The notes below the pieces were generated by a model, which was not told where the DNA came from, searched no databases, and saw only the letters and a program-made list of their open reading frames with translations. Below are positions 26,369-45,768 of a DNA stretch of 64,000 nt, in pieces. Source of the DNA: an uncultured Syntrophomonadaceae bacterium (GTDB lineage Bacteria; Bacillota; Dethiobacteria; DTU022); assembly GCA_964485855.1 (NCBI GenBank), contig CAZAKI010000001.1:33066-97065 (forward strand), written 5' to 3'. A program made the translations under genes and the position numbers. How positions within the stretch are numbered: the first letter of the stretch is position 1; each line of letters starts with the position of its first letter.

Positions 26369-27568
26369 TTATGATCCGCTACGAATGATGCCTCTACTAT
26401 CTAGAACCTTAATTTCTTCTTCAGAATAATTAAGCTCAGTTAAGATTTGGCTGCTGTGTTCACCGTGGCGCGGTGGCTGCAGTCTTAAAGTACCTGGGTT
26501 TCCGGAAAACAGCAATGGAAAACCTGTTAACAACTCAACATGATCATTGGCCACCTTATTTTTTAGCCAAAAGTGATTTTCGATGCTGAGAGGATGTTCA
26601 ACCGATTCATCAAGTGAAAGGACCGGTTCGCAGCAGGCATCAACTTCCGCAAACGACTTGACCCACTGCTGCCTGGTTTTAGTCTTAAACAACTGTTGTA
26701 CTTCGATCAGCAATTTCTTCTGTTGTTGCGGATCGTATTGCTGTCCAATCCATTCCGGATGTTCAACCTTTTGACAAAAACGCTCCCAAAAAACGGGCTC
26801 CAAGGCCCCAAGACTGATGTATTTTCGATCTGCAGTCTGGTAAAGATTATAACAAGCATAAGCACCGGTGATCTGTCCCCGGTTTCGACCGGGAAGCCCT
26901 TTTCCATCAAACAATGTGGAAGCGGCATAGGCAAGCCAGGGCAAAAGCCCCCTGGTCATTGATATATCAACAAAACTTCCTTTTCCGCTCTTATCGCGAT
27001 CATGTAGGGCCATTAAGATCCCAATTACAGCCATTAACGAACCGGCGCCAATATCAGCGATTTGAACCGCGGGCATAACCGGTTCGCCACTTTCATTGGC
27101 GCTCAGTTCAAGAAGACCGGTAAGGGCAGTGTAATTGAGGTCGTGACCGGCTTTGTGCTTAAAACTGCCTAGCTGGCCGTACCCACTAATTGATGCGTAA
27201 ATCAGCCGGGAATTGACTCCTGCTAAAGAATCGTAATCTAAACCCAGTTTCTTCATCACGCCGGGACGAAAACCTTCAACTAAAACATCGGCCTGCTTTA
27301 TCAGCCGGTAAATTATCTCCCGTCCTTGTTCTGCTTTTAAGTTAACCGCAAGGCTGCGTTTATTCCGGTTAATCTGTCTGAAAAACGTTCCGCTACCTTC
27401 AATTTGGGAACCGATATGACGGGTTGGATCTCCATGATCTACATCTTCTATTTTAATCACGTCTGCCCCATAATCACCAAGCAGCATAGTGCATAATGGA
27501 CCTGGGAGCAAACGGGTCAGGTCTAAAACCAGCAAATCATTTAAGAGCGAAGGAACCATAAAGATCAC
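26369..27568 (-). CDS. family III CoA-transferase (CaiB/BaiF/Frc family)
   Basis: 399 aa starting LVLDLTRLLPGPLCTMLLGDYGADVIKIE, with a catalytic Asp region typical of family III. Confidence 0.8.
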   Translation of the reverse strand: MIFMVPSLLNDLLVLDLTRLLPGPLCTMLLGDYGADVIKIEDVDHGDPTRHIGSQIEGSGTFFRQINRNKRSLAVNLKAEQGREIIYRLIKQADVLVEGFRPGVMKKLGLDYDSLAGVNSRLIYASISGYGQLGSFKHKAGHDLNYTALTGLLELSANESGEPVMPAVQIADIGAGSLMAVIGILMALHDRDKSGKGSFVDISMTRGLLPWLAYAASTLFDGKGLPGRNRGQITGAYACYNLYQTADRKYISLGALEPVFWERFCQKVEHPEWIGQQYDPQQQKKLLIEVQQLFKTKTRQQWVKSFAEVDACCEPVLSLDESVEHPLSIENHFWLKNKVANDHVELLTGFPLLFSGNPGTLRLQPPRHGEHSSQILTELNYSEEEIKVLDSRGIIRSGS

Positions 27569-29169
27569 CGATGGGTGTAATGGGGAAGCAACATCGGACC
27601 GATCCTGTCGTTTGCAGCCCCAGTATCTTCCAATTCACGGTGGTAATGGTCGACATGCTGCAGGTTCAAGCCAACCGGTTTGTCAAGATCAAGGCTGACT
27701 TTGGCGGCATGTCGTCCAGAACGTCTTCCAAAAACAATAATATCAAGCAACGAATTGCCCATCAGGCGGTTAGTGCCGTGGATCCCACCTGCCGCTTCAC
27801 CAGCTACGTAAAGGTTCTCAACAGTACTGCGTCCGTTTTCATCGATTAGCAGGCCGCCGTTCTGGTAATGCAAGGTAGGATAAATCAGCATCGGTTCCTT
27901 ACGGATATCAACCCCAAACCGTTGAAACTGGCGCATCATGGCAGGCAGCTGGCGTTCGATAGTTCCCTCGCCGTGGATCATTTCAATTATTGGTGAATCA
28001 AGCCAGACCGCAATTAAGCCTGTTGGCAAGGGCACACCAAGATTTCTCTCGTGACATTCTCGCAAGATAGCCGATGACTCAACATCACGTGTTTCCAAGT
28101 GATAAACGAATTGTTCTCCATTAATATTAAGAGGTGTAGCCCCCAAACCCCTGGTTTTTTCTGTAACCAGAAGACCTAACAGTTGTGGCGGATAAGCACC
28201 GCCGGTTGGATGATACTGAATTGAGTCGGCATAAATCGTTTTTGCACCGGCCCGGTACCCAATGACCAATCCATCGGCTGTAGCCCCATAATGGTTGCTG
28301 GTTGGAAAACCGCGATAATGAAGCCTGCCGGAACCACCAGTTGCCAGAATTACTGTTTTTGCCCTTGCAACCAGATACTGTTCGGTTTCGACATTAAAAA
28401 GTACTGCGCCGGCTGCTCTTCCATTTTGATCGAGGATTACTTCAACAGCAGCACAGAATTCAACAATCGATATGCCTTTATTCAGCACCTCGTCACGTAG
28501 CGTGCGCATGATTTCCGCTCCGGTGTAATCGCGGGCAGCATGCATTCTCTTTCTTGACGTGCCTCCACCATGAATGGTGACCATCGTCCCATCATCTTTC
28601 TTATCAAACATGGTTCCCATGTTCTCGAGCCATTTAATCACCAGGGGAGCATCCATAACCAGGGCACGGGCCAGTTCGGGAACATTATCGAAGCGTCCGC
28701 CCCCGACTACATCCAGGTAGTGGATAGCCGGAGTATCATTTTCCTTATCGGCAGCCTGGATACCACCCTGCGCCATCATCGTATTGGCATCACCAAAACG
28801 CAATTTGGTAGCTATCATCACATTGGCCCCGGCTGCATGCGCCTCAAGGGCAGCGGAAGCACCGGCGCCCCCTCCGCCAATGATTAAAACGTCTACATCG
28901 TAGTCCGGTTCTGTTTCCAGATCCAGTTTTAGATCACGCAGGCGGCTCCATGATTCAAAAACATCAGCCATTTCAACAGGCATCCTGGCTCCCTTGCTGA
29001 CACCAACCTTGATCTCGCGGAAACCGTCGGGATTATAATCTGGGTGAAATTTTTCAAGCACTTCCTGTCGCTCTTCCTGAGTCATGCGTGGAAAATGAAC
29101 ACCAACCCGTGAGGCCCTGCTCTCTTCAACTTTTTTTACTAACTCACCAAGTTTACCGCTATATGCCAA
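27565..29169 (-). CDS. FAD flavoprotein of the succinate dehydrogenase/fumarate reductase (FrdA/SdhA/NadB) superfamily; non-covalent FAD type with an N-terminal extension of about 90 aa
   Basis: The GxGxxG motif (DVLIIGGGGAG) appears only after residue 90. Where the covalent-FAD His would be, the sequence is ANTMMAQGG, with no His. Fumarate-reductase-like active-site regions are present (HPTG, RxxE). Confidence 0.8.
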   Translation of the reverse strand: MAYSGKLGELVKKVEESRASRVGVHFPRMTQEERQEVLEKFHPDYNPDGFREIKVGVSKGARMPVEMADVFESWSRLRDLKLDLETEPDYDVDVLIIGGGGAGASAALEAHAAGANVMIATKLRFGDANTMMAQGGIQAADKENDTPAIHYLDVVGGGRFDNVPELARALVMDAPLVIKWLENMGTMFDKKDDGTMVTIHGGGTSRKRMHAARDYTGAEIMRTLRDEVLNKGISIVEFCAAVEVILDQNGRAAGAVLFNVETEQYLVARAKTVILATGGSGRLHYRGFPTSNHYGATADGLVIGYRAGAKTIYADSIQYHPTGGAYPPQLLGLLVTEKTRGLGATPLNINGEQFVYHLETRDVESSAILRECHERNLGVPLPTGLIAVWLDSPIIEMIHGEGTIERQLPAMMRQFQRFGVDIRKEPMLIYPTLHYQNGGLLIDENGRSTVENLYVAGEAAGGIHGTNRLMGNSLLDIIVFGRRSGRHAAKVSLDLDKPVGLNLQHVDHYHRELEDTGAANDRIGPMLLPHYTHR

Positions 29170-29196
29170 TGATCTAATACCTCCTCTCCAGGTTCG

Positions 29197-29895
29197 TTAT
29201 TCAATTTCTCTCTTGTTGTACATATCCTGCAGTGAATCGCGATCTGCAGAAACCAGGGCATCAATATCGGCGTTACATTCACCCGCTTCAATTGCCTTTG
29301 TGCGCTCTGCTAAAAATTGATCCGGCTTAGCTATGTAGCGGCTATATAGCCTCCTGGCAGTGAGGGCAGCGTTATAATGAACAATATTTGCCGGACAACG
29401 CGATACACAAAGACCGCACATCAGGCAGTCAAAAGATAAATCTGCTGCTTTCTCAAAATCACCACGCTGGATGTAAGCGATATACTGCATTACATCAATG
29501 TCTTGGGGGCAAACTTTCGTACAGGAACTACATCCCAGGCAGCGGTAAACTTCAGGATAAAGCTGGGCAAAATGGGCTACTGATGGTTTGATCTCATCTA
29601 AATCAAATGTTGCTTTACGGCCGGGGAAAAAGGGGATTTGAGCCAAATACATGCCATCTTCCACTTTTGTCTGGCAGGCCAGACCAACTTTTAACTCGTA
29701 ATCACCGGCCATTCGGTATACAGTCGCACATGCTCCGCAAAACCCGGCCCGACAGCCGCAACCACGCTTTAACTGGTATCCCGCATACTCCATGGAATCC
29801 ATGATGGTCAGGGATTCCGGAACTGTATATTTTTTACCCATAATATAAATATCAACCATCTTAATTTCGTCGCTCATATTATCCTCCTTTGGCAA
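29197..29895 (-). CDS. FrdB/SdhB-like iron-sulfur subunit ([2Fe-2S] plus two [4Fe-4S] motifs)
   Basis: C-x4-C-x2-C...C (CRAGFCGAC) plant-ferredoxin-like motif, then CLGCSSCTKVCP and CLMCGLCVSRCP. Confidence 0.8.
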   Translation of the reverse strand: MPKEDNMSDEIKMVDIYIMGKKYTVPESLTIMDSMEYAGYQLKRGCGCRAGFCGACATVYRMAGDYELKVGLACQTKVEDGMYLAQIPFFPGRKATFDLDEIKPSVAHFAQLYPEVYRCLGCSSCTKVCPQDIDVMQYIAYIQRGDFEKAADLSFDCLMCGLCVSRCPANIVHYNAALTARRLYSRYIAKPDQFLAERTKAIEAGECNADIDALVSADRDSLQDMYNKREIE

Positions 29896-29902
29896 AGCAG
29901 AC

Positions 29903-31249
29903 CTATTCGGCAGGTGGTGCAGGAATAAACCCTTTCTCCATTAACATTTGGGTCTGCTTCTGGGCTTTGCCGATCGATGTTTCGGCGAGCTTGTAGATTT
30001 CTTCTCTACTGAGCTTGATGCGGGCTACTCCCTCTTCAATTGCTTTCATCGCCGTCGCAGTTGCGACTCGGGGGAAGATATCCCACATGTCCATCGTCGG
30101 CAATATTTTCTCGGGATTCATACCGCCATCCGGAGCGCAGGCAGCCAGTTCCTCTGCAGCAGCTATACACATTGTATCAGTAATTTTTGTGGCTTGAACA
30201 TCCAAAACACCGCGGAAAATTGCCGGAAAGCCGAGCGAATTATTAACCTGGTTCGGAAAATCAGAACGCCCGGTTGATACTATTTTCGCCCCGGCTTCAA
30301 GAGCCTCCCAGGGCCAGATTTCTGGAATCGGGTTAGCGCAAGCGAAAACAATTGCATCCTTCGCCATGCTGGAGATCCATTCTTTTTTAATCGTGTCAGG
30401 ACCGGGAGTAGAAAGGGCAATGATTACATCGGCTCCGTTACAGGCATCAGCAGGTTGGCCAACCAGATTACCGGCGTTAGTAGTCTGACAAAGTTCCCAT
30501 TTGACCGGGTGTTTTTCCTTTAACTCCGTCCTACCCTTGTGTAATGTCCCCTTGCTGTCAAGCATGATGATCTTTGCCGGATCCACCCCGGCAGCAATAA
30601 TCAAACGGGCGGTGCAGATATTAGCTGCGCCGGCTCCCAGCATGACTACTTTTACTTCGCTCATCTTTTTACCAACTATTTTTAAAGCATTAATCAAACC
30701 GGCCAGATTAACCATGGCCGTTCCCTGCTGGTCATCATGCCAGACCGGAATGTGGCACTCTTCTTTCAGCCGATCCAGGATATCAAAACATTTCGGACTT
30801 GCAATGTCTTCAAGGTTAATCCCGCCAAAACAAGGTTGCAGCATTTTTACGAACTTAATGAACTCTTCAGGATCCTTAGTGTCAACACAAACTGGAAAAG
30901 CATCAACTCCACCCAGGTATTTAAAAAGTAGCGCTTTCCCCTCCATTACCGGCATGCTGGCTTCGGGACCGATATCACCCAATCCGAGAACTCTAGTTCC
31001 ATCTGATACAACCGCCAGCAAATTAGCCTTGTTGGTATATTTGTAAACATCTTCTTTATTCTTAGCTATCGCTTTGCAGGGTTCGGCTACACCCGGAGTG
31101 TACCAAATTGCAAAATCTTTAATATCCCGGACACAACACTTAAGATCCACTTGAATTTTTCCTTTATAAAAGGGATGCAATTTCATCGCATCCTCGGCCG
31201 GCTTTTTGGCTTTAGCCAGCAAATCTTCTTTATTCATGGTCATTATCAT
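29903..31249 (-). CDS. NAD(P)-dependent malic enzyme (short form, oxaloacetate-decarboxylating malate dehydrogenase)
   Basis: 448 aa. Malic enzyme N-terminal and NAD-binding domains (VMLGAGAAN). No phosphotransacetylase-like C-terminal domain. Confidence 0.85.
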   Translation of the reverse strand: MIMTMNKEDLLAKAKKPAEDAMKLHPFYKGKIQVDLKCCVRDIKDFAIWYTPGVAEPCKAIAKNKEDVYKYTNKANLLAVVSDGTRVLGLGDIGPEASMPVMEGKALLFKYLGGVDAFPVCVDTKDPEEFIKFVKMLQPCFGGINLEDIASPKCFDILDRLKEECHIPVWHDDQQGTAMVNLAGLINALKIVGKKMSEVKVVMLGAGAANICTARLIIAAGVDPAKIIMLDSKGTLHKGRTELKEKHPVKWELCQTTNAGNLVGQPADACNGADVIIALSTPGPDTIKKEWISSMAKDAIVFACANPIPEIWPWEALEAGAKIVSTGRSDFPNQVNNSLGFPAIFRGVLDVQATKITDTMCIAAAEELAACAPDGGMNPEKILPTMDMWDIFPRVATATAMKAIEEGVARIKLSREEIYKLAETSIGKAQKQTQMLMEKGFIPAPPAE

Positions 31250-31299
31250 TATCCCTGCCTTTATTATTTGGTGACTGCTTTTTTAGAGATCAGGTGCGG

Positions 31300-31851
31300 T
31301 TAGCGCGCATATTTTTTAGCTCCATCAGCATACAGATCATTGCCGTAGGCATCGTTGATCACAGTGGCCGGAAAATCTTTCACCTCGAGTTTGCGAATCG
31401 CTTCCGGCCCCAATTCCGGATAGGCAACAACTTCGCTTTTGATTATTCGTTTCGAGAGTAATGCTCCCGCCCCTCCCACTGCAGCCAAATAGACGCCCTT
31501 ATATTTCTTTAGCGCTTCTTTGACCGCCTGATTTCTTAAACCCTTACCGATACAGGCTTTCATCCCTTTTTCGAGCATCATTGGAGTATAAGCGTCCATC
31601 CGACCGCTGGTTGTCGGTCCGGCTGAACCAATTGCCTGTCCAGGTTTGGCCGGAGCCGGTCCCACGTAATAAATAAACTGTCCCTTTAAATCGATCGGCA
31701 GATCCTCATTTTTTTCCATCAACTCAATTAGTTTTTTATGCGCTGCGTCACGTGCCGTATATATGATTCCACTAATTAATACATTGTCTCCCGCTTTAAG
31801 TGCAAGCACATCCGCATCGCTCAGTGGTGCAGAAATTTTTTTCGGTTCCAT
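31300..31851 (-). CDS. class I (Fe-S) fumarate hydratase / tartrate dehydratase beta subunit
   Basis: 183 aa. Matches the Fe-S hydro-lyase beta (FumB/TtdB type) family. Confidence 0.85.
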   Translation of the reverse strand: MEPKKISAPLSDADVLALKAGDNVLISGIIYTARDAAHKKLIELMEKNEDLPIDLKGQFIYYVGPAPAKPGQAIGSAGPTTSGRMDAYTPMMLEKGMKACIGKGLRNQAVKEALKKYKGVYLAAVGGAGALLSKRIIKSEVVAYPELGPEAIRKLEVKDFPATVINDAYGNDLYADGAKKYAR

Positions 31852-31881
31852 TGTGCTGTCCTCCTTCCTGCTTTGATCAAA

Positions 31882-32727
31882 TTATATTTCTCGTTCCAGG
31901 TGGCGGCAGGCATGGCAATTAATATTGACTGCCGCTGCCATGCTGGCGATATGTGAAGGAAATGTTTCAATATGAACGGCAAGAGCAAAAGTCCTACCAC
32001 CGAAACCCTGGGGACCTACGCCTAGATCATTGATCTTGCTCAGTATTTTCGCTTCAAGCTCCGCGAAAACCGGATCGCCATGCTTTGAACCTATTTGGCG
32101 GAAAAGGGCTTTTTTGGCCATCACCGCAACCTTGTCAAAAGTACCACCTATGCCGACACCAACAACTATCGGGGGACAAGGATTCGGTCCGGCAGCTTTA
32201 ACGTGATTGACAACAAAGTCAATTACTCCGGCTTCACCATCCGACGGTTTCAGCATTTTTACCGTGCTCATATTTTCACTGCCGCCGCCTTTTGGGGCAA
32301 AAGAGATCTTCACTTTATCACCGGGTACAAGATCCGTATAAATTACCGCCGGGGTATTATCTCCGGTGTTTTTCCTCTGGTAGAGAGGATCATCGACAAT
32401 TGATTTGCGTAGATATCCTTCTTCATATCCTTTGCGCACACCAGCATGAATCGCTTCCTCAAGCGTTCCTCCCGTCAGATGCACTTCCTGTCCCCACTCG
32501 ACAAAAAAAACAGCAAACCCCGTATCCTGGCAGATCGGAATTTGCTCATTTCTGGCAATCTCAACGTTTTCAATCAGCTGTTTTAAGACTTCCTTACCTG
32601 TTGGCGATTCTTCAGTATCCATTGACTTTTTTAAGGCAGAAAAGACGTCTTCGCCTAAGTAGATGTTTGCTTTCTGGCACATCTCGGCCACATGATCACT
32701 AATAACAGACGCGGCAAGCTCCCGCAA
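31882..32727 (-). CDS. class I (Fe-S) fumarate hydratase / tartrate dehydratase alpha subunit
   Basis: Fe-S hydro-lyase alpha with Cys ligands. The start is set at TTG 32727 (MRELAASV...), 8 nt after GGGAGG. The GTG at 32736 overlaps the Shine-Dalgarno. Confidence 0.85.
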   Translation of the reverse strand: MRELAASVISDHVAEMCQKANIYLGEDVFSALKKSMDTEESPTGKEVLKQLIENVEIARNEQIPICQDTGFAVFFVEWGQEVHLTGGTLEEAIHAGVRKGYEEGYLRKSIVDDPLYQRKNTGDNTPAVIYTDLVPGDKVKISFAPKGGGSENMSTVKMLKPSDGEAGVIDFVVNHVKAAGPNPCPPIVVGVGIGGTFDKVAVMAKKALFRQIGSKHGDPVFAELEAKILSKINDLGVGPQGFGGRTFALAVHIETFPSHIASMAAAVNINCHACRHLEREI

Positions 32728-32856
32728 ACCAGACACCTCCCATGAAATTTCTGCAGTTGTACATTTATATTTCTTTTTCGGCCTGCATGGGGAAATTCCT
32801 GCCGCTAATTATAAAATTTATTATAATTCTAAAATTTATCATGGAAGGCTTGCCGG

Positions 32857-33744
32857 CTATTTTGCTACTTTAGCCATTAACTTTTTGTAATCCCGATCAA
32901 CTTCTGCCTGCAAGTGTTCTAATTTAGCTTGATCCATGTTCTTAAAACGTTTTTGTCTCCCCAAATATTCACTGAGTGGAACGCTTTTAATGTCAGCCTG
33001 AACGGTCATCCTCCAGGTGGTGCCATTATCTACTTCAAAAAGAGGGAAGAAACCGGTTGTAACCGCTAGCCTTGATATTTCAACGGTTTCTGATGATTCA
33101 GTCCCCCAGCCAGGCGGGCAGGGCGATAATATATGAATAAAGCGAAAGCCCTTTATCGCTTTGGCTTTCTTCAGTTTTGCATCCAAATCTTCAGGATAAG
33201 CGATCGTTGCCGTTGCTATATACGGTACACTATGCGCCGCCATGATCTGCATGATGTCTTTCTTTTCTCCCTCTTTGAAGAGTGGATAGGGCGCGGTGTT
33301 TGTCCTCGCACCAAAAGGTGTCGCCGAACTTGTTTGCATACCTGTATTCATATAAGCTTCGTTATCATAACAGACAAAAATGAAGTCTTCGTTTCTCTGG
33401 GCTGCTCCAGACAAGGCTTGAAGGCCGATATCAAAAGTACCGCCATCTCCGGCCAGCACGACAACTGTAGTCTCATGGTAACCTTTTGCCTCCAAGCCCC
33501 TTTTAAGCCCGCTCCCTACAGAACCGGCGCTGGGAAACGGACAGTGTAGGACAGGGCATTTTAAGGCATTTAAAGGAGGCATCCCGGCAATAATACTCCA
33601 GCAGGATGCAGTTAGCGCAACAGCAATATTGGATCCAAGAGCCTTGGTTAGAAAACGGACGGCGAGCGCAGCACCGCAGCCCGGACAGGCATTATGCCCG
33701 GAATAAACCATTTCCTGTTGATGGACTAATGCTTCCGGTTTCAT
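32857..33744 (-). CDS. 2-oxoacid:ferredoxin oxidoreductase beta subunit (TPP-binding)
   Basis: 295 aa. N-terminal CPGCG and TPP motif GDGG...N (VVVLAGDGGTFDIG...YDNEAYMNTG). Confidence 0.85.
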   Translation of the reverse strand: MKPEALVHQQEMVYSGHNACPGCGAALAVRFLTKALGSNIAVALTASCWSIIAGMPPLNALKCPVLHCPFPSAGSVGSGLKRGLEAKGYHETTVVVLAGDGGTFDIGLQALSGAAQRNEDFIFVCYDNEAYMNTGMQTSSATPFGARTNTAPYPLFKEGEKKDIMQIMAAHSVPYIATATIAYPEDLDAKLKKAKAIKGFRFIHILSPCPPGWGTESSETVEISRLAVTTGFFPLFEVDNGTTWRMTVQADIKSVPLSEYLGRQKRFKNMDQAKLEHLQAEVDRDYKKLMAKVAK

Positions 33745-34889
33745 TTTAGATGATCACCCCAGACTTCAAGATACTGGTCATTTGTCTCTGCGTTGCCTGC
33801 ACTGAGCATGTTCAAAAGCATATCTCCGGTTAAATCGATGCCGCCGGCCAAGATCAGATCCCTGATTACAGGCTTTACCGGCAACTGGTAAAGAGCTTGA
33901 CAGAGTTCCTGGGCAAATACTCCGCCGCTCCCGATTGAATAGTTGCGATCAAGAACAATAATCTCTTCCAGCTCATAAGCTTTGACGATCGCACGCAGTC
34001 TTTCGGCGGGAAAAGGTCTGAACATCCGCAGCTTGATTAGCCCGATATTTTCCAGGTCTGGCAAAGACCACTTTACCGTTTCTGCTAATGCCCCAACCGC
34101 CATAATAGCTTTTCTGGCACCGGCAGGAATATATTCCTCCACATCTTGGTAACTACGGCCGAAAACTTTTTTAAACTGTTTATTGATCTCGGCAAAAACT
34201 TCCGGCGCAAGATGCATCGCATCGTCGCGATTTTTTACCAACTTATGGACTGTTTCACCGGTTGACAATCCGTGCAAATTTTCCGGATATCCCGGAACAA
34301 CCTGGGCTTTAAAATTTGGCGGTCCGATTAAACTTTGCACCAAAGATTTTTCTGCAATATCGACCACCTCATAGGTATGAGAAATATAGAATCCGTCAAA
34401 TACCACCATGCAGGGCAAAAGCAATTTTTCAGCCAGCGAAAATGCCTGTAAAACAGTATCAAAGACTTCCTGGGCATTGGCACAATAAATCTGAAGCCAT
34501 CCTGTGTCCCGCTGGCTGAGACTGTCGCCCTGATCCGGATCGAGACACCAGGGGGCACCGATAGCCCGGTTCACGTTAACCATAACGATTGGCAGTCTTG
34601 CTCCGCTGGACCAATGAATCATTTCATGCATGTAGGCCAGACCATGTGAAGCAGTAGCGGTAAAGACCCTGGCTCCAGAAGCTGACGCACCGGTACAAAA
34701 GGCAAGAGCTGAATATTCAGACTCAACACTGACAAATTCGCCTCCCAACTCTCCCCTGGCATCAAAATCAGCTAAAGTTTCAACAATTGCCGTTTGCGGT
34801 GTAATCGGATAAGCAGCGATCAGATCAACACCAACTCTTTGAACGGCTGTTGCGGCGGCCTGGCTGCCACTAATCATCTCAAAAGTCAT
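33741..34889 (-). CDS. 2-oxoacid:ferredoxin oxidoreductase alpha subunit
   Basis: 382 aa POR/KOR alpha-type protein. Its coding sequence overlaps the beta gene by 4 nt and the upstream gene by 11 nt. Confidence 0.85.
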   Translation of the reverse strand: MTFEMISGSQAAATAVQRVGVDLIAAYPITPQTAIVETLADFDARGELGGEFVSVESEYSALAFCTGASASGARVFTATASHGLAYMHEMIHWSSGARLPIVMVNVNRAIGAPWCLDPDQGDSLSQRDTGWLQIYCANAQEVFDTVLQAFSLAEKLLLPCMVVFDGFYISHTYEVVDIAEKSLVQSLIGPPNFKAQVVPGYPENLHGLSTGETVHKLVKNRDDAMHLAPEVFAEINKQFKKVFGRSYQDVEEYIPAGARKAIMAVGALAETVKWSLPDLENIGLIKLRMFRPFPAERLRAIVKAYELEEIIVLDRNYSIGSGGVFAQELCQALYQLPVKPVIRDLILAGGIDLTGDMLLNMLSAGNAETNDQYLEVWGDHLK

Positions 34890-36435
34890 TCGCCGGCTCC
34901 TCCTTCATTTCCAAAGCTCTGGCCGGGCATTCGTTGACGCAGATGCCACAGCCCTTGCAATAGTCCAGGTTAAACTCAAAACGACCGTTTGCTATGACAA
35001 CAGCTAAATCAGGACAGTATAGATAACAGATACCGCATGAATTACAGGTTCCGCAACCAAGGCAGCGTTCTGCTTCTGCCACCGGGTTGTCGTCCCGCTG
35101 TTTTAAATCAAGATTATTTCTTGCAGCCAGATTTAAATATTCAAAGGTAACTGGATCACCATAATTGGCCTGGAAACTCAAATCTTTTAATTTTTCATCA
35201 ACATTTTTAATCGCCTCCGCCGCACAGTGTCCAGCTTTAATTGCTTCTGCCACTGTTGCCGGGCCACTGACTAAATCTCCTCCGGCAAAAATATTTTGAC
35301 TACTATTGATAGTACCCAATCCTGCTAAATCAGGAACCTGGCCAAGAGCCATAATTACGGATTGACAATCTTTAATAAAACTTCTATCCCGATCGACAAA
35401 CAAACCTTGTTTTTCAGTCCGACAGTAATCAATCCTTACACCAATTATTCTTTCTTCGGTTTTAATAATCTCACGTGGTAAAGCATTAAAAATAAACTCT
35501 ACGCCTTCCTGCTCTGCCAGATCAATTTCATGTTGATCGGCTGGCATCTCAGGTCTGCTGCGCCTGTAGATTAAAACAACATGTTGCACTCCGGCAATGC
35601 GTAGTGCACTACGTGCACTGTCGATTGCTGCATTACCACCGCCAATGACAACAACTGTTTTGCCAACCTCTGGGATCCTACTTTGATTGTATTGGCAGAG
35701 AAAGTCAAGAGCATTATAAACATAGCGACTTTCCGCACCCGGAATATTGGATTTGCGTGCAAGCCAGGCTCCAGTAGCCAGAAAAACCTGTTCATGCTGT
35801 TTGTATAGATCATCGAGCTGAAAATCTTTGCCCAAGGCGCTATTGGTTTTAAAAATAATGCCTTCCGCTTTCAAGATGGCCAGCTCTTGTCTTAGAATAT
35901 CACGTGGTAACCTGTATTCCGGGATGCCAAGCGCAAGCATACCACCGATTACTGCTGATCTTTCGTAAATGGTAACCCCATAGCCGGCTGAGGAGAGATA
36001 ATAGGCACAGCTTAAACCAGCCGGGCCGGAGCCGACAATAGCGATCTCCTTCTTTACTTCTTTGTTTCTTTCTGGCGGCTGATAATGATCAAGTCTCCAC
36101 AAACCAATTGCCTTTTCCACTGCTCTGATATTAATTCCCTGATCCAACTGAGTCCTGTTACAGTTTTGCTCACAGGGGTTAAAACAAACATAACCGGTAA
36201 TTGCCGGGAAAGGATTATAGCGGCTCATAATCTCCCAGGCTTCTGCCCATTTTTTTTGTTTTACCGCTTCAAGCCAAGCCGGTATTTCACCGTCCAAAAG
36301 ACAGCCCTGGCGACATGGTGATAACCGATTCATTTTGAAGGGAGTTAAAAAACGCCACTCCCCGGTCTTGTTGACCGTGATAGCTTTAGATCCACCGGCA
36401 AACAATGTTGGTACCTGGCTAGCGATCAACTGCAA
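34879..36435 (-). CDS. fusion protein: a GltD-like NAD(P)H-dependent FAD/Fe-S oxidoreductase module joined to an OFOR delta-type 2x[4Fe-4S] ferredoxin domain
   Basis: N-terminal Cys-rich helical ferredoxin-like segment (CRQGC...CFNPCEQNC). Two dinucleotide folds (IAIVGSGPAGLSCAYYL and VVVIGGGNAAIDSARSA). C-terminal CxxCxxCxxxCP motifs (CKGCGICVNECP). TTG start with an AAGGAGG Shine-Dalgarno. It overlaps the gamma gene by 17 nt. Confidence 0.75.
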   Translation of the reverse strand: MQLIASQVPTLFAGGSKAITVNKTGEWRFLTPFKMNRLSPCRQGCLLDGEIPAWLEAVKQKKWAEAWEIMSRYNPFPAITGYVCFNPCEQNCNRTQLDQGINIRAVEKAIGLWRLDHYQPPERNKEVKKEIAIVGSGPAGLSCAYYLSSAGYGVTIYERSAVIGGMLALGIPEYRLPRDILRQELAILKAEGIIFKTNSALGKDFQLDDLYKQHEQVFLATGAWLARKSNIPGAESRYVYNALDFLCQYNQSRIPEVGKTVVVIGGGNAAIDSARSALRIAGVQHVVLIYRRSRPEMPADQHEIDLAEQEGVEFIFNALPREIIKTEERIIGVRIDYCRTEKQGLFVDRDRSFIKDCQSVIMALGQVPDLAGLGTINSSQNIFAGGDLVSGPATVAEAIKAGHCAAEAIKNVDEKLKDLSFQANYGDPVTFEYLNLAARNNLDLKQRDDNPVAEAERCLGCGTCNSCGICYLYCPDLAVVIANGRFEFNLDYCKGCGICVNECPARALEMKEEPANDF

Positions 36436-37015
36436 GGTACGCCACCTCCTTTACACTAGCAAATCCCTCGGTGGTCGCATTAATATTAGCATCAAGGCTT
36501 ACTGAAACTCTTTTCTTAATCGATGCCGTCAAATGTTCCAGGTTGACCAATCCACTTACTTTAGCCATAGCCCCAAGCATCACCGTATTAACCATTGGAA
36601 AACTACCGATGGCCAGATTATTTTTCAAGGCAATTTCTTTAGCCTCAATTTGAAATACTTTATACTGGCAGAGATTAGTCCTATTTTTTTCGAATAGTTT
36701 CCGCCAATCTTCCCCGGCATTAATAATCAGATTTCCTTCCTCCTGCAGGCCAGAAAAAAGAGTCTGTCTGCTAATTGTTGCATCAAACACTACCACATAA
36801 TCAGGATGATAAATTCTGCTACGGGGCATCAGCCGCTCCGGACTAATTCTAATGAAAGCAGTTACCGGCGCACCGCGACGCTCAGCGCCAAAAAGGGAAA
36901 AAGCCCGGGCATATTTACCGCTTAAAAATACAGCTTCGGCAAAAATCGATGCGGCTACAACAATCCCCTGCCCCCCCCTGCCGTGTAACCTAAATTCGGT
37001 TATTCCTCTGCGCAT
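36419..37015 (-). CDS. 2-oxoacid:ferredoxin oxidoreductase gamma subunit
   Basis: 198 aa POR/KOR/VOR gamma-type protein with a GGGAGG Shine-Dalgarno. It is the first gene of a gamma/delta/alpha/beta order. Confidence 0.85.
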   Translation of the reverse strand: MRRGITEFRLHGRGGQGIVVAASIFAEAVFLSGKYARAFSLFGAERRGAPVTAFIRISPERLMPRSRIYHPDYVVVFDATISRQTLFSGLQEEGNLIINAGEDWRKLFEKNRTNLCQYKVFQIEAKEIALKNNLAIGSFPMVNTVMLGAMAKVSGLVNLEHLTASIKKRVSVSLDANINATTEGFASVKEVAYLAVDR

Positions 37016-37030
37016 TTACATTCCTCCCTA

Positions 37031-37071
37031 CAATATTTTGCAAGATGAAATAGTTTGCTTGCAAAATATTG
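37031..37071. promoter_or_regulatory. perfect 14-bp inverted repeat, CAATATTTTGCAAG-N13-CTTGCAAAATATTG, in the 5' leader just upstream of the gamma-subunit Shine-Dalgarno
   Basis: Direct reading. A third partial TTTTGCAA copy lies near 37239..37248, overlapping the -12 region of the sigma-54 promoter. Confidence 0.4.
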
Positions 37072-37242
37072 CATGGTTCTTTTTTAAAGTCTTTTCTGTC
37101 CCGCTTTTATTAACATCTAAAGCGTCTCTGCTCTAAGGCCTAAAACTCTCAATAACCTTCCTCAAGCTCTTTAGCCGCCATCCTGGCAAATATTTAACGA
37201 TCAGCATCTCTCCTTATCTCAATTGTTAGCTACAAAATTATT

Positions 37243-37259
37243 TTGCAATTTTCATGCCA
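37243..37259 (-). promoter_or_regulatory. sigma-54 (-24/-12) promoter, TGGCATGAAAATTGCAA, driving the oxidoreductase/TCA-branch operon
   Basis: On the minus strand, the GG and GC dinucleotides are spaced exactly as in the TGGCACG-N4-TTGCW consensus. The site lies 17 nt downstream of the stop of the adjacent sigma-54 activator gene, with a roughly 215-nt leader to the first structural gene. Confidence 0.55.
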
Positions 37260-37275
37260 TAAAAAAAGAGAAATT

Positions 37276-38676
37276 TTAAATTAGGTTTTGTTGGTGAAGT
37301 TTGTTGTAAAGATTGCGGATTGAAATATCGAGGATACGTGCTGCTTCGGCCTTGTTGCCTTTGGCTTCCAGCAAGGCTTGACGCAAAATACCTTTTTCCC
37401 AGCTTTTATGCAGATCTTTTAAACTGCCTAGCGGTTTCTCACTTTCTCCTGTTTCAGTTTTTCCTGTGATCAGGTCGGGCATCATTAAGTGAGATTCAGT
37501 GATCATATTTTCTGTCCGATCTAAGTTAATCACCGCGCGAGCCATTACATTTTGTAACTCCCTGATGTTACCCGGCCAGTCATAGGCTTTCAGTCGTTTA
37601 AATACTGTAGGGGCAATTTCCACTGAATTTAGGCCGTATTCCAGGGCGCAGCGGGAGGCAAAATAATTAGCCAGTAGGGGGATATCACTGAGCATCTCTT
37701 TCAGTGAAGGTAAATAAATCGGAAATACATTGAGACGATAATAAAGATCCTGTCGAAAATAATTATTTTCGACCAGCTTTTCCAGATTGGCATTCGTCGC
37801 CGCTATAATTCGCACATCGATCTGCCGGCTACGTGACTCGCCTACCCTGATTATTTCACCCTCTTGAAGTGCCCTCAGTAATTTGGCTTGAGCTTCCGGA
37901 CCCATCGCACCGATTTCATCTAAAAACAAAGTACCATCAGTAGCCTCTTCAAAATATCCCTTACGCCCTCCTTTTTTAGCACCCGTAAAAGCCCCATCAC
38001 CGTAACCAAAAAGTTCGCTTTCCAGAAGAGTGTCAGTCAGTGATGCGCAGTTAACCCTGATAAACGGTTGATCAGCCCTTTCACTGTCATGATGAATGGC
38101 ATGAGCAAAAAGTTCTTTACCAGTACCACACTCACCTCGTAATAATATGGATACCGGGGTTGAGGCAGCCTGCCTTGCTCGCTCTATAGCTTTGCGCAGT
38201 GACATGCTGTCACCGATAATGTCTTTAAAAGTATAACGAGATTCCAATTTCCGGACCAGCCGGCGAGTGCGTTCCAACTCTTCCATCACCAGCCTCAACT
38301 CAGAAATATCGTGAATTACTCCGACACTACCCTTGATCTCTTTATTTAAGAATAAGGGGGCACAGCTTACGATTACTTCTCTGCGCAGTGGTCCTACTTT
38401 CATTCGAACTCCGGTAATCGCTTTTCCACTTTCCAGGACTTTTAAGTGGACACTTTCTCCTTCTGCAATATCAACAGTTGCCGGTTTATTTAACACTTGT
38501 TCTCTGGTCATTCCCGTAATTCTGGTGTAAGCGCTATTAATCATCATTCCGTTCCCTTTTTCATCAACTATAGAGACCGCATCGGACAGTGAATCAATAA
38601 TGGCCTGAAGAAGAACCATAGAGTCTTTTCCATCATTTAATAACCTAAATTGACCCTTAGAAAGATTACTGATCAT
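37276..38676 (-). CDS. sigma-54-dependent transcriptional activator (PAS sensor + AAA+ sigma-54 interaction domain + Fis-type HTH)
   Basis: 466 aa. GAFTGA-type motif (GDGAFTGA), Walker A GECGTGKE, and a C-terminal HTH ([18 protein letters not shown]). Confidence 0.9.
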
Positions 38677-42988: not shown

Positions 42989-43109
42989 GACCAACCTCCG
43001 GGATATCATCCAACTAGTTAGACCGATTCAGCAAAAATGCCCCGGGTAGATCTCAAGTAAAGTAAGATTATTGAGATCAGCAACGCGGTTCCCAGTAAAT
43101 AATATAAAA

Positions 43110-44774: not shown

Positions 44775-44789
44775 ATGATCACCCGCTTT

Positions 44790-45734: not shown

Positions 45735-45768
45735 TTTTTCACCCCATAGTTAAAAATAATCGTCGCTT

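What the first reader, a model, noticed from the sequence alone, without database searches (positions are those of the whole stretch)
32857..37015. 2-oxoacid:ferredoxin oxidoreductase operon whose delta ferredoxin is fused to a GltD-like NAD(P)H flavoprotein
The operon has the classical gamma/delta/alpha/beta order seen in porGDAB or korGDAB. Here the delta position holds a 518-aa fusion protein. It carries an N-terminal Cys-rich module and two dinucleotide-binding folds (GSGPAG and GGGNAA), as in the glutamate synthase small subunit, SudA or NfnB. The delta-type 2x[4Fe-4S] motifs follow at its C-terminus. All four genes overlap by 4-17 nt, which implies a single complex. This architecture predicts a 2-oxoacid oxidoreductase or synthase wired directly to NAD(P)H, possibly confurcating with ferredoxin, rather than one that is purely ferredoxin-dependent. 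Such enzymes are poorly characterised.
Basis: partly seen in the sequence, partly recalled or inferred. Interest (0 to 1): 0.7.

Follow-up and report, generated by a model that had tools for sequence, protein, structure and literature searches.

The report
NADP-linked 2-oxoacid oxidoreductase operon
A four-gene 2-oxoacid:ferredoxin oxidoreductase operon in which the small ferredoxin (delta) subunit has a complete NADP(H)-binding flavoprotein built into it, so the enzyme probably passes electrons from 2-oxoacid oxidation directly to NADP+ instead of to free ferredoxin; the type is common in databases but has never been studied biochemically.

Summary
Four overlapping minus-strand genes (gamma 36419-37015, 518-aa delta fusion 34879-36435, alpha 33741-34889, beta 32857-33744) encode an OFOR of the pyruvate/2-ketoisovalerate family.

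- **Architecture.** The delta gene is not a simple end-to-end fusion. A GltD/NfnB-type FeS flavoprotein sits inside PorD, between its N-terminal NKTGxWR arm and its 2x[4Fe-4S] core. The flavoprotein's first CxxC pair has moved behind the FAD domain, directly before the PorD cluster motif.
- **Not an artefact.** The exact protein occurs in at least 10 assemblies. At least 119 full-length homologues exist, plus about 150 representatives of 50%-identity clusters. The gene lay between gamma and alpha in all 11 contexts examined. Some relatives also fuse gamma, or IorA-like catalytic domains, to the module.
- **Regulation and context.** A conserved sigma-54 promoter and a PAS activator precede the operon. 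Relatives usually carry a Leu/Val/Phe-type amino-acid dehydrogenase as first gene, which is lost here.
- **Best reading.** TPP, then five [4Fe-4S] clusters, then FAD, then NADP+ (YRR motif): a 2-oxoacid:NADP+ oxidoreductase acting on branched-chain 2-oxoacids and/or pyruvate.
- **Open.** Bifurcation or confurcation is neither supported nor excluded.

It is a new variant of a known kind and is uncharacterised.

The parts
37276..38676 (-). Sigma-54-dependent transcriptional activator (PAS sensor, AAA+ domain, Fis-type HTH), directly upstream of the operon
   Evidence: Pfam Sigma54_activat 227.9 bits, PAS, AAA_lid_14 and HTH_8. The best NCBIfam match is PrdR at 410 bits, below its cutoff of 795. 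The same gene precedes the operon in L081-L086.
37244..37259 (-). Sigma-54 (-24/-12) promoter TGGCATGAAAATTGCA
   Evidence: This is the only match to TGGCAYN5TTGCW in the 64-kb window, where 0.29 are expected by chance. It lies in the 260-bp gap between the activator and gamma. Relatives L081-L086 all carry TGGTAY-N5-TTGCR at the equivalent place.
37027..37076 (-). Perfect 16-18 bp hairpin in the 5' leader, ending 2 nt before the gamma ribosome-binding site. Role unknown.
   Evidence: RNA fold -20.2 kcal/mol, z = -3.16 against shuffles; sequence read.
36419..37015 (-). OFOR gamma subunit (198 aa)
   Evidence: Pfam POR 131 bits. TIGR02175 PorC_KorC 172 bits, above its 81.1 cutoff.
34879..36435 (-). 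Delta* subunit (518 aa): PorD with an inserted, circularly permuted GltD/NfnB-type FeS flavoprotein
   Evidence: The AF2 model has pLDDT 89.1 and pTM 0.88.
36340..36375 (-). PorD N-terminal arm, residues 21-32 (NKTGEWRFLTP)
   Evidence: Aligns with ANKTGGWRNFRP of the solved PFOR delta subunit 9bt4_G. T24, G25 and P32 are invariant, and N22, W27 and R28 are at least 90% conserved in 119 homologues. A deletion construct extends the PorD_Arch match to profile positions 15-84 and raises the score from 66.6 to 74.1 bits.
35203..36321 (-). GltD/NfnB-like module, residues 39-411. It holds Cys 41, 45, 84, 88, 92 and Glu107 (FeS ligands), the FAD fold GSGPAG, the NADP(H) fold GGGNAA and the YRR motif at 290-292.
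   Evidence: Pfam Fer4_20 + Pyr_redox_2. phmmer to NfnL/NfnB/GltD chains gives E 1e-72 to 1e-52. Foldseek TM 0.73-0.75 (normalised by target length) to NfnI-L, NfnB and GltD at 3.0-3.3 A rmsd. The YRR motif is read as an NADP indicator following PMC7596348.
35053..35202 (-). Linker, residues 412-461, ending in EAERC458LGC461, the relocated first CxxC of the GltD FeS domain
   Evidence: C458 and C461 are invariant. The motif aligns with TEAQRCMSCG, which follows the NfnL-like domain in 9n5u_A. The two arrangements are complementary: 23 of 23 canonical GltD-like ORFs have an N-terminal CxxC and no post-FAD motif, whereas 22 of 37 ORFs without the N-terminal CxxC have [ED]AxRCxxC after the FAD domain.
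34897..35052 (-). PorD ferredoxin core, residues 462-513: C464xxC467xxC470xxxC474P and C493xxC496xxC499xxxC503P
   Evidence: TIGR02179 and PorD_Arch matches. 9bt4_G matches at E 2e-15. All eight Cys are invariant.
33741..34889 (-). OFOR alpha subunit (382 aa)
   Evidence: Pfam POR_N 209.5 bits + PFOR_II. The closest solved chain is PFOR alpha 9bt4_B, E 2e-63.
32857..33744 (-). OFOR beta subunit (295 aa). It carries the TPP motif GDG...NEAYMNTG and the Cys of the intramolecular [4Fe-4S] cluster (C20, C23, C48, C208).
   Evidence: Pfam TPP_enzyme_C. The closest solved chain is PFOR beta 9bt4_C, E 6.5e-65, with these motifs aligned.
26369..32736 (-). Six co-oriented downstream genes, probably in the same transcript: class-I fumarase alpha (31882-32736) and beta (31300-31851), malic enzyme (29903-31249), SdhB-like FeS protein (29197-29895), TfrA/FrdA-like flavoprotein (27565-29169) and family-III CoA-transferase (26369-27568)
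   Evidence: Pfam and NCBIfam. There are no intergenic terminator-like sites on this strand, and a sigma-70-like promoter appears only after the CoA-transferase, at 26310-26338. The same gene order occurs in L082 and L084.

Best explanation
The four genes encode one heterotetrameric (probably dimeric) 2-oxoacid oxidoreductase of the pyruvate/2-ketoisovalerate family with a built-in ferredoxin:NADP+ reductase.

**Proposed electron path (inferred).** The 2-oxoacid is decarboxylated on TPP in alpha/beta. Its two electrons leave one at a time through the beta [4Fe-4S] cluster, then the two PorD-type clusters of delta* (C464-C503). From there they enter the 'distal' GltD-type cluster, proposed to be held by C458/C461 of the same peptide together with C41/C92. 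They continue to the Glu107-ligated 'proximal' cluster (C45, C84, C88) and reach FAD. FAD collects both electrons and hands a hydride to NADP+.

**Net reaction.** 2-oxoacid + CoA + NADP+ gives acyl-CoA + CO2 + NADPH. This is strongly exergonic and needs no free ferredoxin.

**Regulation.** Expression is driven from a sigma-54 promoter by the adjacent PAS-domain activator.

**Physiological role.** In the family as a whole, the enzyme is the step after an NAD(P)-dependent Leu/Val/Phe-type amino-acid dehydrogenase. That makes it an anaerobic counterpart of the B. subtilis bkd operon (recalled, not tested here), with the GltD module playing the role of E3. In this genome that dehydrogenase has been lost. 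The enzyme is instead co-transcribed with fumarase, malic enzyme, a soluble fumarate-reductase-like pair and a CoA-transferase, so pyruvate is a likely additional or main substrate.

**Shown versus inferred.** Shown: domain content, fold, conserved ligands, gene order, promoter and distribution. Inferred: cluster assignment of C458/C461, direction of electron flow, NADP specificity and substrate.
For: - **Domains and fold.**; the AF2 model has pLDDT 89.1 and pTM 0.88, so the ferredoxin domain is confidently docked on the flavoprotein.
- **Insertion into PorD.**
- **Permuted CxxC.** C458xxC461 directly abuts the PorD motif C464xxC467xxC470xxxC474P. The N-terminal and post-FAD CxxC arrangements are complementary across GltD-like ORFs. 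The same permuted module is reported to bind two [4Fe-4S] clusters in the solved StnC and NfnABC structures (PMC10482914 and PMC11829005).
- **One complex.** The gene lay between gamma and alpha (beta following wherever the contig reached) in 11 of 11 contexts, spanning 41-99% identity and further 50% clusters. Natural gamma-delta* fusions exist (P0130, P0149, P0226), as do IorA-like-GltD-Fer4 fusions (P0187, P0244).
- **NADP.** Y290 and R292 are invariant and R291 is at least 90% conserved. YRR is described as indicating NADP binding (PMC7596348).
- **Precedent for the chemistry.** The standalone GltD-like CAC0764 is a strictly NADP(H)-specific, non-bifurcating ferredoxin:NADP+ reductase (PMC9365771).
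- **Catabolic context.** The sigma-54 promoter is conserved. An ELFV dehydrogenase lies upstream in 5 of the 11 contexts (6 loci, as L082 and L083 hold the same protein), plus one pseudogene remnant, once together with a Liv-type branched-chain amino-acid ABC transporter. These dehydrogenases are of the Leu/Val/Phe/Trp type, not GDH.
- **Catalytic motifs.** The alpha and beta motifs are intact.
Against: - There is no biochemical evidence for any family member.
- I could not read model coordinates, so the proposed C458/C461-C41/C92 cluster is unverified. Loffler et al. propose Ser/Thr/Arg ligands for the equivalent DsrL cluster instead.
- The proximal cluster keeps the Glu ligand typical of bifurcating NfnB rather than the Lys of non-bifurcating StnC. 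A more complex redox role therefore cannot be dismissed.
- Sending -500 mV electrons to NADP+ wastes energy, which seems odd for an anaerobe of a lineage that includes syntrophs.
- The substrate is not determined. NCBIfam Por and Vor equivalog scores are similar and all fall below their cutoffs.
- The delta* ferredoxin domain might still also serve free ferredoxin.
Confidence: 0.65

Rival explanations
1. Flavin-based electron confurcation or bifurcation at the delta* FAD, along the lines the first reader suggested. In this reading the low-potential OFOR branch is coupled at the flavin with a second, higher-potential branch. In this operon that branch could be the co-transcribed [2Fe-2S]/FAD fumarate-reductase-like pair, acting like NfnA. 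NADP(H) turnover would then be linked to two half-reactions, for example NADPH driving pyruvate synthesis plus fumarate reduction, or the reverse.
For: The module is closest to NfnB/NfnL-type proteins. It keeps the Glu (E107) ligand of the NfnB proximal cluster and the Arg (R175) equivalent to NfnB R201. The window, L082 and L084 co-encode a soluble Fer2/Fer4 protein and a flavoprotein in the same operon.
Against: - The conserved core in L085-L089, L091 and L092 has no NfnA-like or Sdh-like partner.
- No [2Fe-2S] site lies within delta*.
- The same permuted GltD module is non-bifurcating in StnC and NfnABC.
- Standalone CAC0764 is non-bifurcating.
- R175 is also conserved in non-bifurcating StnC, so it does not discriminate.
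Confidence: 0.08
2. The complex works physiologically in the reductive direction, as an NADPH-fed 2-oxoacid synthase (acyl-CoA + CO2 gives 2-oxoacid). With the ELFV dehydrogenase running as a reductive aminase, it would supply branched-chain amino acids or, via malic enzyme, C4 acids.
For: OFORs are reversible, and ELFV dehydrogenases are reversible (established knowledge). In GltD, electrons flow from NADPH to the clusters. The downstream flavoprotein lacks the covalent-FAD histidine (Asn instead), as fumarate reductases and NadB do. This hints that the C4 branch may run reductively.
Against: - NADPH (about -320 mV) cannot drive reductive carboxylation (about -500 mV) without extra coupling, and no coupling device is encoded in the core.
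- Sigma-54/PAS activators of this type typically control catabolic operons.
- A Liv uptake transporter lies upstream in L092, and TRAP transporters flank the operon in L087 and L088. Both suggest substrate import for degradation.
Confidence: 0.1
3. Delta* keeps the ordinary role of PorD (electron exit to free ferredoxin). Its flavoprotein part would be an auxiliary ferredoxin:NADP+ reductase that merely travels with the complex, so the enzyme reduces either ferredoxin or NADP+ depending on supply.
For: The PorD core is fully conserved and scores above the PorD_KorD cutoff. CAC0764 shows that GltD-like proteins exchange electrons with ferredoxins.
Against: The contiguous ligand string C458-C474 and the high pTM of 0.88 argue for a fixed internal wire rather than a loosely attached module. 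No ferredoxin gene is conserved in the operons examined. This rival overlaps largely with the best explanation and differs only in exclusivity.
Confidence: 0.15
4. Artefact: a pseudo-fusion created by a frameshift or assembly error joining a gltD-like gene and porD.
For: None found.
Against: The identical 518-aa product occurs in at least 10 independent assemblies. There are 119 full-length homologues with invariant junction residues and about 150 representatives of 50%-identity clusters, most covering nearly the whole profile. The PorD arm sits at the N-terminus and the PorD core at the C-terminus, which a single frameshift cannot produce.
Confidence: 0.01

Closest known systems
Four-subunit pyruvate/2-ketoisovalerate:ferredoxin oxidoreductases (PorGDAB/VorGDAB; solved example PDB 9bt4)
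   Same: The gamma-delta-alpha-beta gene order is the same. Alpha, beta and gamma are homologous (E 2e-63 and 6.5e-65 to 9bt4_B and 9bt4_C). The delta N-arm and the 2x[4Fe-4S] core are conserved.
   Different: Delta is 518 aa instead of about 85-105 aa, because a flavoprotein is inserted. The predicted acceptor is NADP+ rather than free ferredoxin. The Por and Vor equivalog models all score below their cutoffs.
GltD / NfnB (NfnL) / standalone FNOR CAC0764 family of FeS flavoproteins
   Same: The fold matches (TM 0.73-0.75 normalised by target length). Fer4_20 + Pyr_redox_2 are present, with two dinucleotide folds, a Glu-ligated proximal cluster position and the YRR NADP motif. CAC0764 carries out the same half-reaction, from a ferredoxin-type cluster to NADP+.
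   Different: The first CxxC is circularly permuted to behind the FAD domain. There is no GltB or NfnA partner. The module is embedded in an OFOR subunit.
NfnL-like/GltD-like domain of StnC and of NfnA in Bfu-type NfnABC (PDB 8oh5, 9bov, 9n5u)
   Same: These are the best sequence and structure matches (E 1e-72, Foldseek E 7e-41). They share the permuted arrangement with a post-FAD EAxRCxxC motif. The FAD acts as a simple NADPH entry point wired to a long FeS chain.
   Different: In those proteins the module is fused to NuoG/Fdh-like domains and serves a HydBC-type bifurcating core. The proximal cluster ligand there is Lys, whereas here it is Glu.
DsrL (NAD(P)H:acceptor oxidoreductase of dissimilatory sulfur metabolism)
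   Same: The domain order is identical: FeS domain, FAD/NAD(P) domain, linker, C-terminal 2x[4Fe-4S] ferredoxin. A DsrL-like protein from Ca. Sulfotelmatobacter (L006) shares even the TGNWR...P arm and the RCxxCGTCNxCxxCYxxCP string.
   Different: DsrL has a linker of about 100 aa described as flexible, and it works with DsrAB. Loffler et al. explicitly exclude genes linked to POR/VOR genes from DsrL. No dsr genes were seen among the window genes annotated here.
Pyruvate:NADP+ oxidoreductase (PNO) of Euglena, Cryptosporidium and Blastocystis, and NAD+-dependent phenylglyoxylate dehydrogenase PadEFGHI of Aromatoleum/Azoarcus (both recalled from the literature, not tested beyond the NCBIfam names)
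   Same: The functional idea is the same: an OFOR whose electrons end on a pyridine nucleotide through an attached flavoprotein.
   Different: PNO uses a C-terminal cytochrome-P450-reductase-type FMN/FAD module, which is an unrelated fold. The Pad gamma, delta, alpha and beta models match at only 134, 48-53, 220 and 221 bits, against cutoffs of 300, 150, 700 and 700, so this is not a Pad orthologue.

Membership tests
OFOR, pyruvate/2-ketoisovalerate family (four-subunit type) | Gamma subunit matching TIGR02175 above its curated cutoff | tested here: met
   172.2 bits against a cutoff of 81.1
OFOR, pyruvate/2-ketoisovalerate family (four-subunit type) | Alpha with POR_N + PFOR_II; beta with the TPP-binding GDG...NN motif and the Cys of the intramolecular [4Fe-4S] | tested here: met
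   Pfam; alignments to 9bt4_B and 9bt4_C with the motifs conserved
OFOR, pyruvate/2-ketoisovalerate family (four-subunit type) | Delta subunit: N-terminal arm plus two CxxCxxCxxxCP motifs, matching TIGR02179 | tested here: met
   62.3 bits against a cutoff of 60.05 in the native protein. With the insert removed the score is 71.4 bits, covering profile positions 8-77 of 78.
OFOR, pyruvate/2-ketoisovalerate family (four-subunit type) | Equivalog-level identity as Por or Vor (substrate assignment) | tested here: not met
   PorA_Arch 342/550, VorA PRK08366 324/646, beta NF008818 363/405 and PorB 339/405; all are below their cutoffs
OFOR, pyruvate/2-ketoisovalerate family (four-subunit type) | Ferredoxin as physiological electron acceptor | not testable with these tools
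   Requires an enzyme assay
GltD/NfnB-type FeS flavoprotein | Fer4_20 + Pyr_redox_2 domains, FAD and NAD(P)H Rossmann motifs, GltD fold | tested here: met
   Pfam scores above the gathering thresholds; Foldseek TM 0.73-0.75 (normalised by target length) and rmsd 3.0-3.3 A to 5jfc_L, 4ylf_B and 6s6s_E
GltD/NfnB-type FeS flavoprotein | Canonical N-terminal CxxCx4CxxxCP supplying four ligands | tested here: not met
   Only C41xxxC45 is present at the N-terminus. The Fer4_20 match starts at profile position 30. The CxxC is relocated to 458/461.
GltD/NfnB-type FeS flavoprotein | Adjacent partner gene (gltB for glutamate synthase; nfnA for Nfn) | tested here: not met
   The neighbours are OFOR gamma and alpha in all 11 contexts
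NCBIfam NF009410 (PRK12771, 'NAD(P)-binding protein' subfamily) | Full-length match above the curated cutoff | tested here: inconclusive
   The alignment is end-to-end (residues 22-513 against profile 31-565 of 566), but 427.4 bits is below the cutoff of 516
DsrL | Domain order: N-terminal FeS domain, FAD/NAD(P) domain, linker, C-terminal 2x[4Fe-4S] | tested here: met
   definition taken from PMC7596348
DsrL | Organism carries dsrAB, and the gene is not linked to POR/VOR subunit genes (criteria 1 and 3 of Loffler et al. 2020) | tested here: not met
   The gene lies inside an OFOR operon. No dsr genes were seen among the window genes annotated.
NADH-dependent phenylglyoxylate dehydrogenase PadEFGHI | Subunits matching the Pad equivalog models above their cutoffs | tested here: not met
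   134/300 (gamma), 47.9/150 (delta), 220/700 (alpha) and 221/700 (beta)
Electron-bifurcating NfnAB | NfnA-type [2Fe-2S]/FAD subunit forming the high-potential branch | tested here: not met
   No such gene lies in the operon or in the conserved core of relatives. The rest of the genome was not available.

The most novel reading that the evidence does not exclude
In this operon type (window, L082, L084) the delta* flavin could be a confurcation or bifurcation node. It would join the low-potential OFOR branch with the co-transcribed soluble [2Fe-2S]/FAD fumarate-reductase-like pair, which would act as an NfnA analogue. Pyruvate/acyl-CoA, fumarate/succinate and NADP(H) would then be coupled in one soluble supercomplex. 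That would give a membrane-independent solution to the succinate/fumarate step of methylmalonyl-CoA-type pathways.

A second, more modest novel reading is that DsrL descends from such OFOR delta* subunits, since it shares the PorD N-arm and the six-Cys string.
Probability: 0.06. Interest if true: 0.85.

Novelty: new variant of a known kind. Interest (0 to 1): 0.55.

Why it matters
OFORs are textbook ferredoxin-dependent enzymes. A widespread bacterial variant that hard-wires them to NADP+ would change how redox budgets are reconstructed for many uncultured anaerobes. Such genes are currently annotated as 'FAD-dependent oxidoreductase' or 'glutamate synthase beta-like' plus ordinary POR/VOR subunits. 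Metabolic models that assume reduced ferredoxin is produced, and used for H2 formation or bifurcation partners, would be wrong for these organisms.

The variant would be the bacterial counterpart of eukaryotic pyruvate:NADP+ oxidoreductase, built from a different flavoprotein. It would also be an anaerobic analogue of the branched-chain 2-oxoacid dehydrogenase complex.

The architecture offers a compact, testable model of how electron wires are assembled by domain insertion: a PorD split by a circularly permuted GltD module, with six consecutive Cys feeding two clusters. It also points to a possible origin for DsrL. For metabolic engineering, an oxygen-sensitive but ferredoxin-independent route from 2-oxoacids to acyl-CoA plus NADPH would be useful.

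Tried and rejected
- **Methylmalonyl-CoA (mmc) cluster of Pelotomaculum.** I first suspected this cluster. It was rejected because the mmc clusters described in PMC8892533 and PMC6046458 have a different gene set and a different PFOR gene, mmcM.
- **Genome-contig scan with alignment A1.** The tool chose the generic GltD motifs as patterns. The loci were reused as a comparison set for the CxxC permutation test.
- **Literature searches for a characterised GltD-OFOR fusion**. These found no biochemical study. I could not establish the nature of PadH.
- **Coordinate-level check of Cys-Cys distances in the AF2 model.** Not possible, because the tool returns no coordinates.
- **ELFV dehydrogenase remnant in the window's 260-bp leader.** None was detectable, in contrast to L081.
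- **2-oxoglutarate specificity (kor).** Rejected: the Kor, Oor and OGOR models score far lower than the Por and Vor models.
- **Organism identification.** This reached only 'uncultured Bacillota, nearest named Dethiobacter/Dethiobacteria'.

Full report
**1.

The ORF list shows four consecutive minus-strand ORFs at the reported positions:

| Subunit | Coordinates | Length |
|---|---|---|
| gamma | 36419-37015 | 198 aa |
| delta fusion | 34879-36435 | 518 aa, TTG start |
| alpha | 33741-34889 | 382 aa |
| beta | 32857-33744 | 295 aa |

The genes overlap by 17, 11 and 4 nt. The TTG start of the fusion is preceded by AAGGAGGTG at a 7-nt spacing. The alpha ATG is preceded by AAGGAGGAG, and alpha/beta share an ATGA overlap.

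Pfam assigns POR to gamma, POR_N + PFOR_II to alpha and TPP_enzyme_C to beta. The 518-aa protein receives Fer4_20 (residues 39-111), Pyr_redox_2 (130-402) and a Fer4 dicluster (463-510).

NCBIfam places gamma in the pyruvate/2-ketoisovalerate family, with TIGR02175 at 172 bits against a cutoff of 81. The C-terminus of the fusion matches PorD_KorD, with TIGR02179 at 62.3 bits against a cutoff of 60.05. The Kor, Oor and OGOR models score far lower. Alpha and beta are most similar to the solved four-subunit PFOR 9bt4 (E 2e-63 and 6.5e-65). The TPP motif and the Cys of the beta cluster are conserved.

**2. The fusion is real and conserved.**

- The exact 518-aa sequence is recorded from NCBI, JGI, ENA and Logan assemblies, and all ten members of its 90% cluster are 518 aa.
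- A protein search returned more than 100 full-length homologues of 509-580 aa, down to 41% identity.
- In the 119-sequence alignment, the dinucleotide motifs, all FeS ligands and the junction residues are invariant.
- A profile search of 1.84 billion cluster representatives gave 6687 hits at E <= 1e-30. That count includes ordinary GltD/NfnB proteins. Among the best 150, all with E <= 1e-119, most span profile positions of about 10-514, which is the whole architecture.

A frameshift artefact is therefore excluded.

**3. The architecture is an insertion plus a circular permutation.**

*(a) The N-terminus is a PorD arm.* Residues 21-32 (NKTGEWRFLTP) are not part of the GltD module. They align with ANKTGGWRNFRP at the N-terminus of the solved PFOR delta subunit 9bt4_G. 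I made a virtual deletion construct of residues 1-38 joined to 453-518. It matches the PorD_Arch profile over positions 15-84 of 85 at 74.1 bits, against 66.6 bits for the C-terminal part alone. It matches TIGR02179 over positions 8-77 of 78. T24, G25 and P32 are invariant, and N22, W27 and R28 are nearly so. The flavoprotein therefore sits inside PorD, between its arm and its ferredoxin core.

*(b) Two cluster ligands are missing at the N-terminus.* The N-terminal FeS part has only five Cys (41, 45, 84, 88, 92) plus the conserved Glu107. By the NfnB numbering quoted in PMC7596348, these correspond to C47, C51, C90, C96, C100 and E117. The two ligands equivalent to NfnB C39 and C42 are absent at the N-terminus, and the Fer4_20 match starts only at profile position 30.

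*(c) The missing pair has moved behind the FAD domain.* Two extra invariant Cys, in EAERC458LGC461, lie immediately before the first PorD motif C464xxC467xxC470xxxC474P.

- I compared GltD-like ORFs from 60 unrelated loci. All 23 with the canonical N-terminal CxxCx4CxxxC lack a post-FAD motif. Of the 37 without the N-terminal CxxC, 22 carry [ED]AxRCxxC about 100 residues after the FAD GD motif.
- From my own knowledge of GltD/NfnB sequences (not checked here), a similar EAxRCxxC string opens the canonical Fer4_20 domain.
- It aligns with TEAQRCMSCG, which follows the NfnL-like domain of the solved NfnABC subunit 9n5u_A.
- The StnC and NfnABC papers report two [4Fe-4S] clusters in that permuted domain (PMC10482914 and PMC11829005).

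I infer that C458 and C461 complete the distal GltD-type cluster. On that reading one continuous peptide (C458-C474) ligates two adjacent clusters, forming a hard-wired junction between the OFOR and flavoprotein electron chains.

The AF2 model is confident (pLDDT 89.1, pTM 0.88), which implies a fixed position for the ferredoxin domain. Foldseek confirms the GltD/NfnB fold: TM 0.73-0.75 (normalised by target length) at 3.0-3.3 A to NfnI-L, NfnB and GltD, with the best hits being NfnABC and StnC. I could not read coordinates, so the ligand assignment remains an inference.

**4. It belongs to one complex.**

- The gene lay between a POR-gamma gene and POR alpha (beta followed wherever the contig reached) in all 11 contexts examined. 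These were the window, L081 (76% identity), L082/L083 (60%), L084 (57%), L085 (51%), L086 (Dethiobacter alkaliphilus, 43%), L087 (44%), L088 (42%) and L089 (43%), plus two representatives of other 50% clusters, L091 and L092.
- 'Rosetta-stone' fusions exist. P0130, P0149 and P0226 are POR-gamma + GltD + Fer4 in one chain. P0187 and P0244 combine POR_N + TPP_enzyme_C (IorA-like) with the GltD module and Fer4.

**5. Regulation and context.**

- *Promoter and activator.* A PAS/AAA+/HTH sigma-54 activator (37276-38676) lies directly upstream. The only match in the window to the -24/-12 consensus TGGCAYN5TTGCW is at 37244-37259, between the activator and gamma, where 0.29 matches per window are expected by chance. 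All six related loci have TGGTAY-N5-TTGCR at the same place.
- *Amino-acid dehydrogenase.* In L082-L086 and L092 the first gene after the promoter is an ELFV-family dehydrogenase of 319-356 aa (two copies in L084). The four I scanned (L082, both L084 copies, L086) match NCBIfam Trp_DH_ScyB best, at about 345 bits and below its cutoff. That places them in the Leu/Val/Phe/Trp type rather than GDH. L092 adds a Liv-type branched-chain amino-acid ABC transporter.
- *Loss in this lineage.* L081 retains only a frameshifted, internally deleted remnant of that gene (E 6e-14). The window has none, so this lineage has lost the dehydrogenase.
- *Downstream genes.* With no intergenic terminator-like sites, the window continues with class-I fumarase alpha and beta, a malic enzyme (best NCBIfam match 'NADP-dependent malic enzyme'), an SdhB-like 2Fe-2S + 2x4Fe-4S protein, a TfrA/FrdA-like flavoprotein and a family-III CoA-transferase. 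The flavoprotein has Asn where SdhA has the histidine for covalent FAD. L082 and L084 share this extension.
- *Upstream genes.* These are LigA, a two-subunit acyl-CoA mutase with MeaB and a corrinoid adenosyltransferase, two acyl-CoA dehydrogenases and a thiolase.
- *Organism.* DnaE relatives place the organism among uncultured Bacillota. The nearest named relatives are Dethiobacter and Dethiobacteria, at 61-68% identity.

**6. Most likely mechanism.**

- *Electron path (inferred).* Electrons from TPP-bound 2-oxoacid pass the beta cluster, the two PorD clusters and the two GltD-type clusters, and are collected by FAD, which reduces NADP+.
- *NADP preference.* This is predicted from the invariant YRR motif (residues 290-292), read as in PMC7596348.
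- *Precedent for the second half of the chain.* CAC0764 is a standalone GltD-like protein shown to be a strictly NADP(H)-specific, non-bifurcating ferredoxin:NADP+ reductase (PMC9365771). In StnC and NfnABC the same permuted module is a plain NADPH port.
- *Functional analogues.* The enzyme would be the bacterial analogue of eukaryotic pyruvate:NADP+ oxidoreductase, which uses a different flavoprotein (from my own knowledge). With the sigma-54 activator and amino-acid dehydrogenase, it would also be an anaerobic analogue of the B. subtilis bkd operon (also from my own knowledge).
- *Substrate.* This is not resolved. The Por and Vor equivalog models score similarly and all fall below their cutoffs. 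The ELFV and Liv context points to branched-chain or aromatic 2-oxoacids. In this window the malic-enzyme context points to pyruvate.

**7. Rivals.**

- *Bifurcation or confurcation.* This cannot be excluded. The module keeps the NfnB-type Glu ligand (E107) rather than the StnC Lys. However, the conserved core encodes no NfnA-like high-potential branch. The fumarate-reductase-like pair that could play that role is present only in a subset of operons.
- *NADPH-driven synthase direction.* This is thermodynamically unfavourable without such coupling.
- *Dual ferredoxin/NADP+ output.* This is compatible with the data and differs only in degree from the best explanation.
- *Membership of DsrL or PadEFGHI.* DsrL shares the domain order, and a DsrL-like protein (L006) shares the PorD arm and six-Cys string. 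That suggests common descent. Membership is rejected on context (criteria). PadEFGHI is rejected on scores.

**8. Novelty.**

- The family is abundant and is auto-annotated. [quoted passage not shown]
- NCBIfam PRK12771 covers the protein end-to-end, though below its cutoff.
- Loffler et al. mention such genes in passing.
- I found no biochemical or structural study in the searchable literature.

It is best classed as a new, uncharacterised variant of a known kind of enzyme, with a noteworthy insertion and permutation architecture.

Noticed in passing
L081:6937-7421, compared with window 37016-37275: The closest distinct relative (76% identity) carries a decayed, frameshifted and internally deleted remnant of the ELFV amino-acid dehydrogenase gene between the sigma-54 promoter and gamma (tblastn E 6e-14). 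The window has lost it completely, and no ELFV gene lies anywhere in the 64 kb. This looks like recent loss of the operon's first gene in this lineage.
   Followed up: yes
window 37027-37076 (-): A perfect 16-18 bp hairpin (CAAUAUUUUGCAAG...CUUGCAAAAUAUUG; -20.2 kcal/mol, z = -3.16) ends 2 nt before the gamma ribosome-binding site. Similar TGCAAAATATT-like repeats occur in the leaders of L081 and L086. It could be an operator, an RNA stability element or a translational control element.
   Followed up: partly
window 27565-29169 (-) and 29197-29895 (-): The soluble SdhA/TfrA-like flavoprotein has an extra N-terminal segment of about 90 aa. It has Asn where SdhA carries the histidine for covalent FAD (GDANTMMAQGG against GKAHTVMAEGG). 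It is paired with a 232-aa 2Fe-2S + 2x(CxxCxxCxxxCP) protein, and no membrane anchor gene is present. This points to a soluble fumarate reductase with an unknown electron donor, co-transcribed with the OFOR.
   Followed up: partly
window 42599-49895 (-): An upstream catabolic block holds a thiolase, two acyl-CoA dehydrogenases, a corrinoid adenosyltransferase, MeaB and a two-subunit acyl-CoA mutase (554 + 136 aa). I did not determine whether the mutase acts on methylmalonyl-CoA or isobutyryl-CoA. Either would fit degradation of branched-chain or odd-chain substrates.
   Followed up: partly
P0130, P0149, P0226; P0187, P0244, P0201 (database proteins): Further natural fusions exist: POR-gamma + GltD module + Fer4 in one chain (about 720-780 aa), and IorA-like POR_N + TPP_enzyme_C + GltD module + Fer4 (about 1000-1130 aa). 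The GltD module has therefore been joined to OFOR parts in several separate architectures.
   Followed up: partly
L006:226-2058 (Ca. Sulfotelmatobacter sp. contig JASHRE010000235): A 610-aa DsrL-like protein shares the PorD-type TGNWRAIRP arm, the five-Cys N-terminal pattern and the string RCFSCGTCNACDNCYLVCP. This suggests that DsrL-type proteins and OFOR delta* subunits share a common chimeric ancestor. The extra CxxC may be an overlooked pair of ligands for the DsrL 'distal' cluster.
   Followed up: partly
window 40953-42602 (+): A TetR-family regulator and an NAD-dependent epimerase/dehydratase-like gene lie on the opposite strand, interrupting the otherwise co-oriented catabolic region. 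The same pair is present in L081 but absent from L082.
   Followed up: no
whole window: GC skew is negative throughout, and nearly all long ORFs are on the minus strand. GC content rises from about 0.41 (1-26 kb) to about 0.49 (48-64 kb). DnaE relatives indicate an uncultured Bacillota lineage whose nearest named relatives are Dethiobacter/Dethiobacteria.
   Followed up: partly
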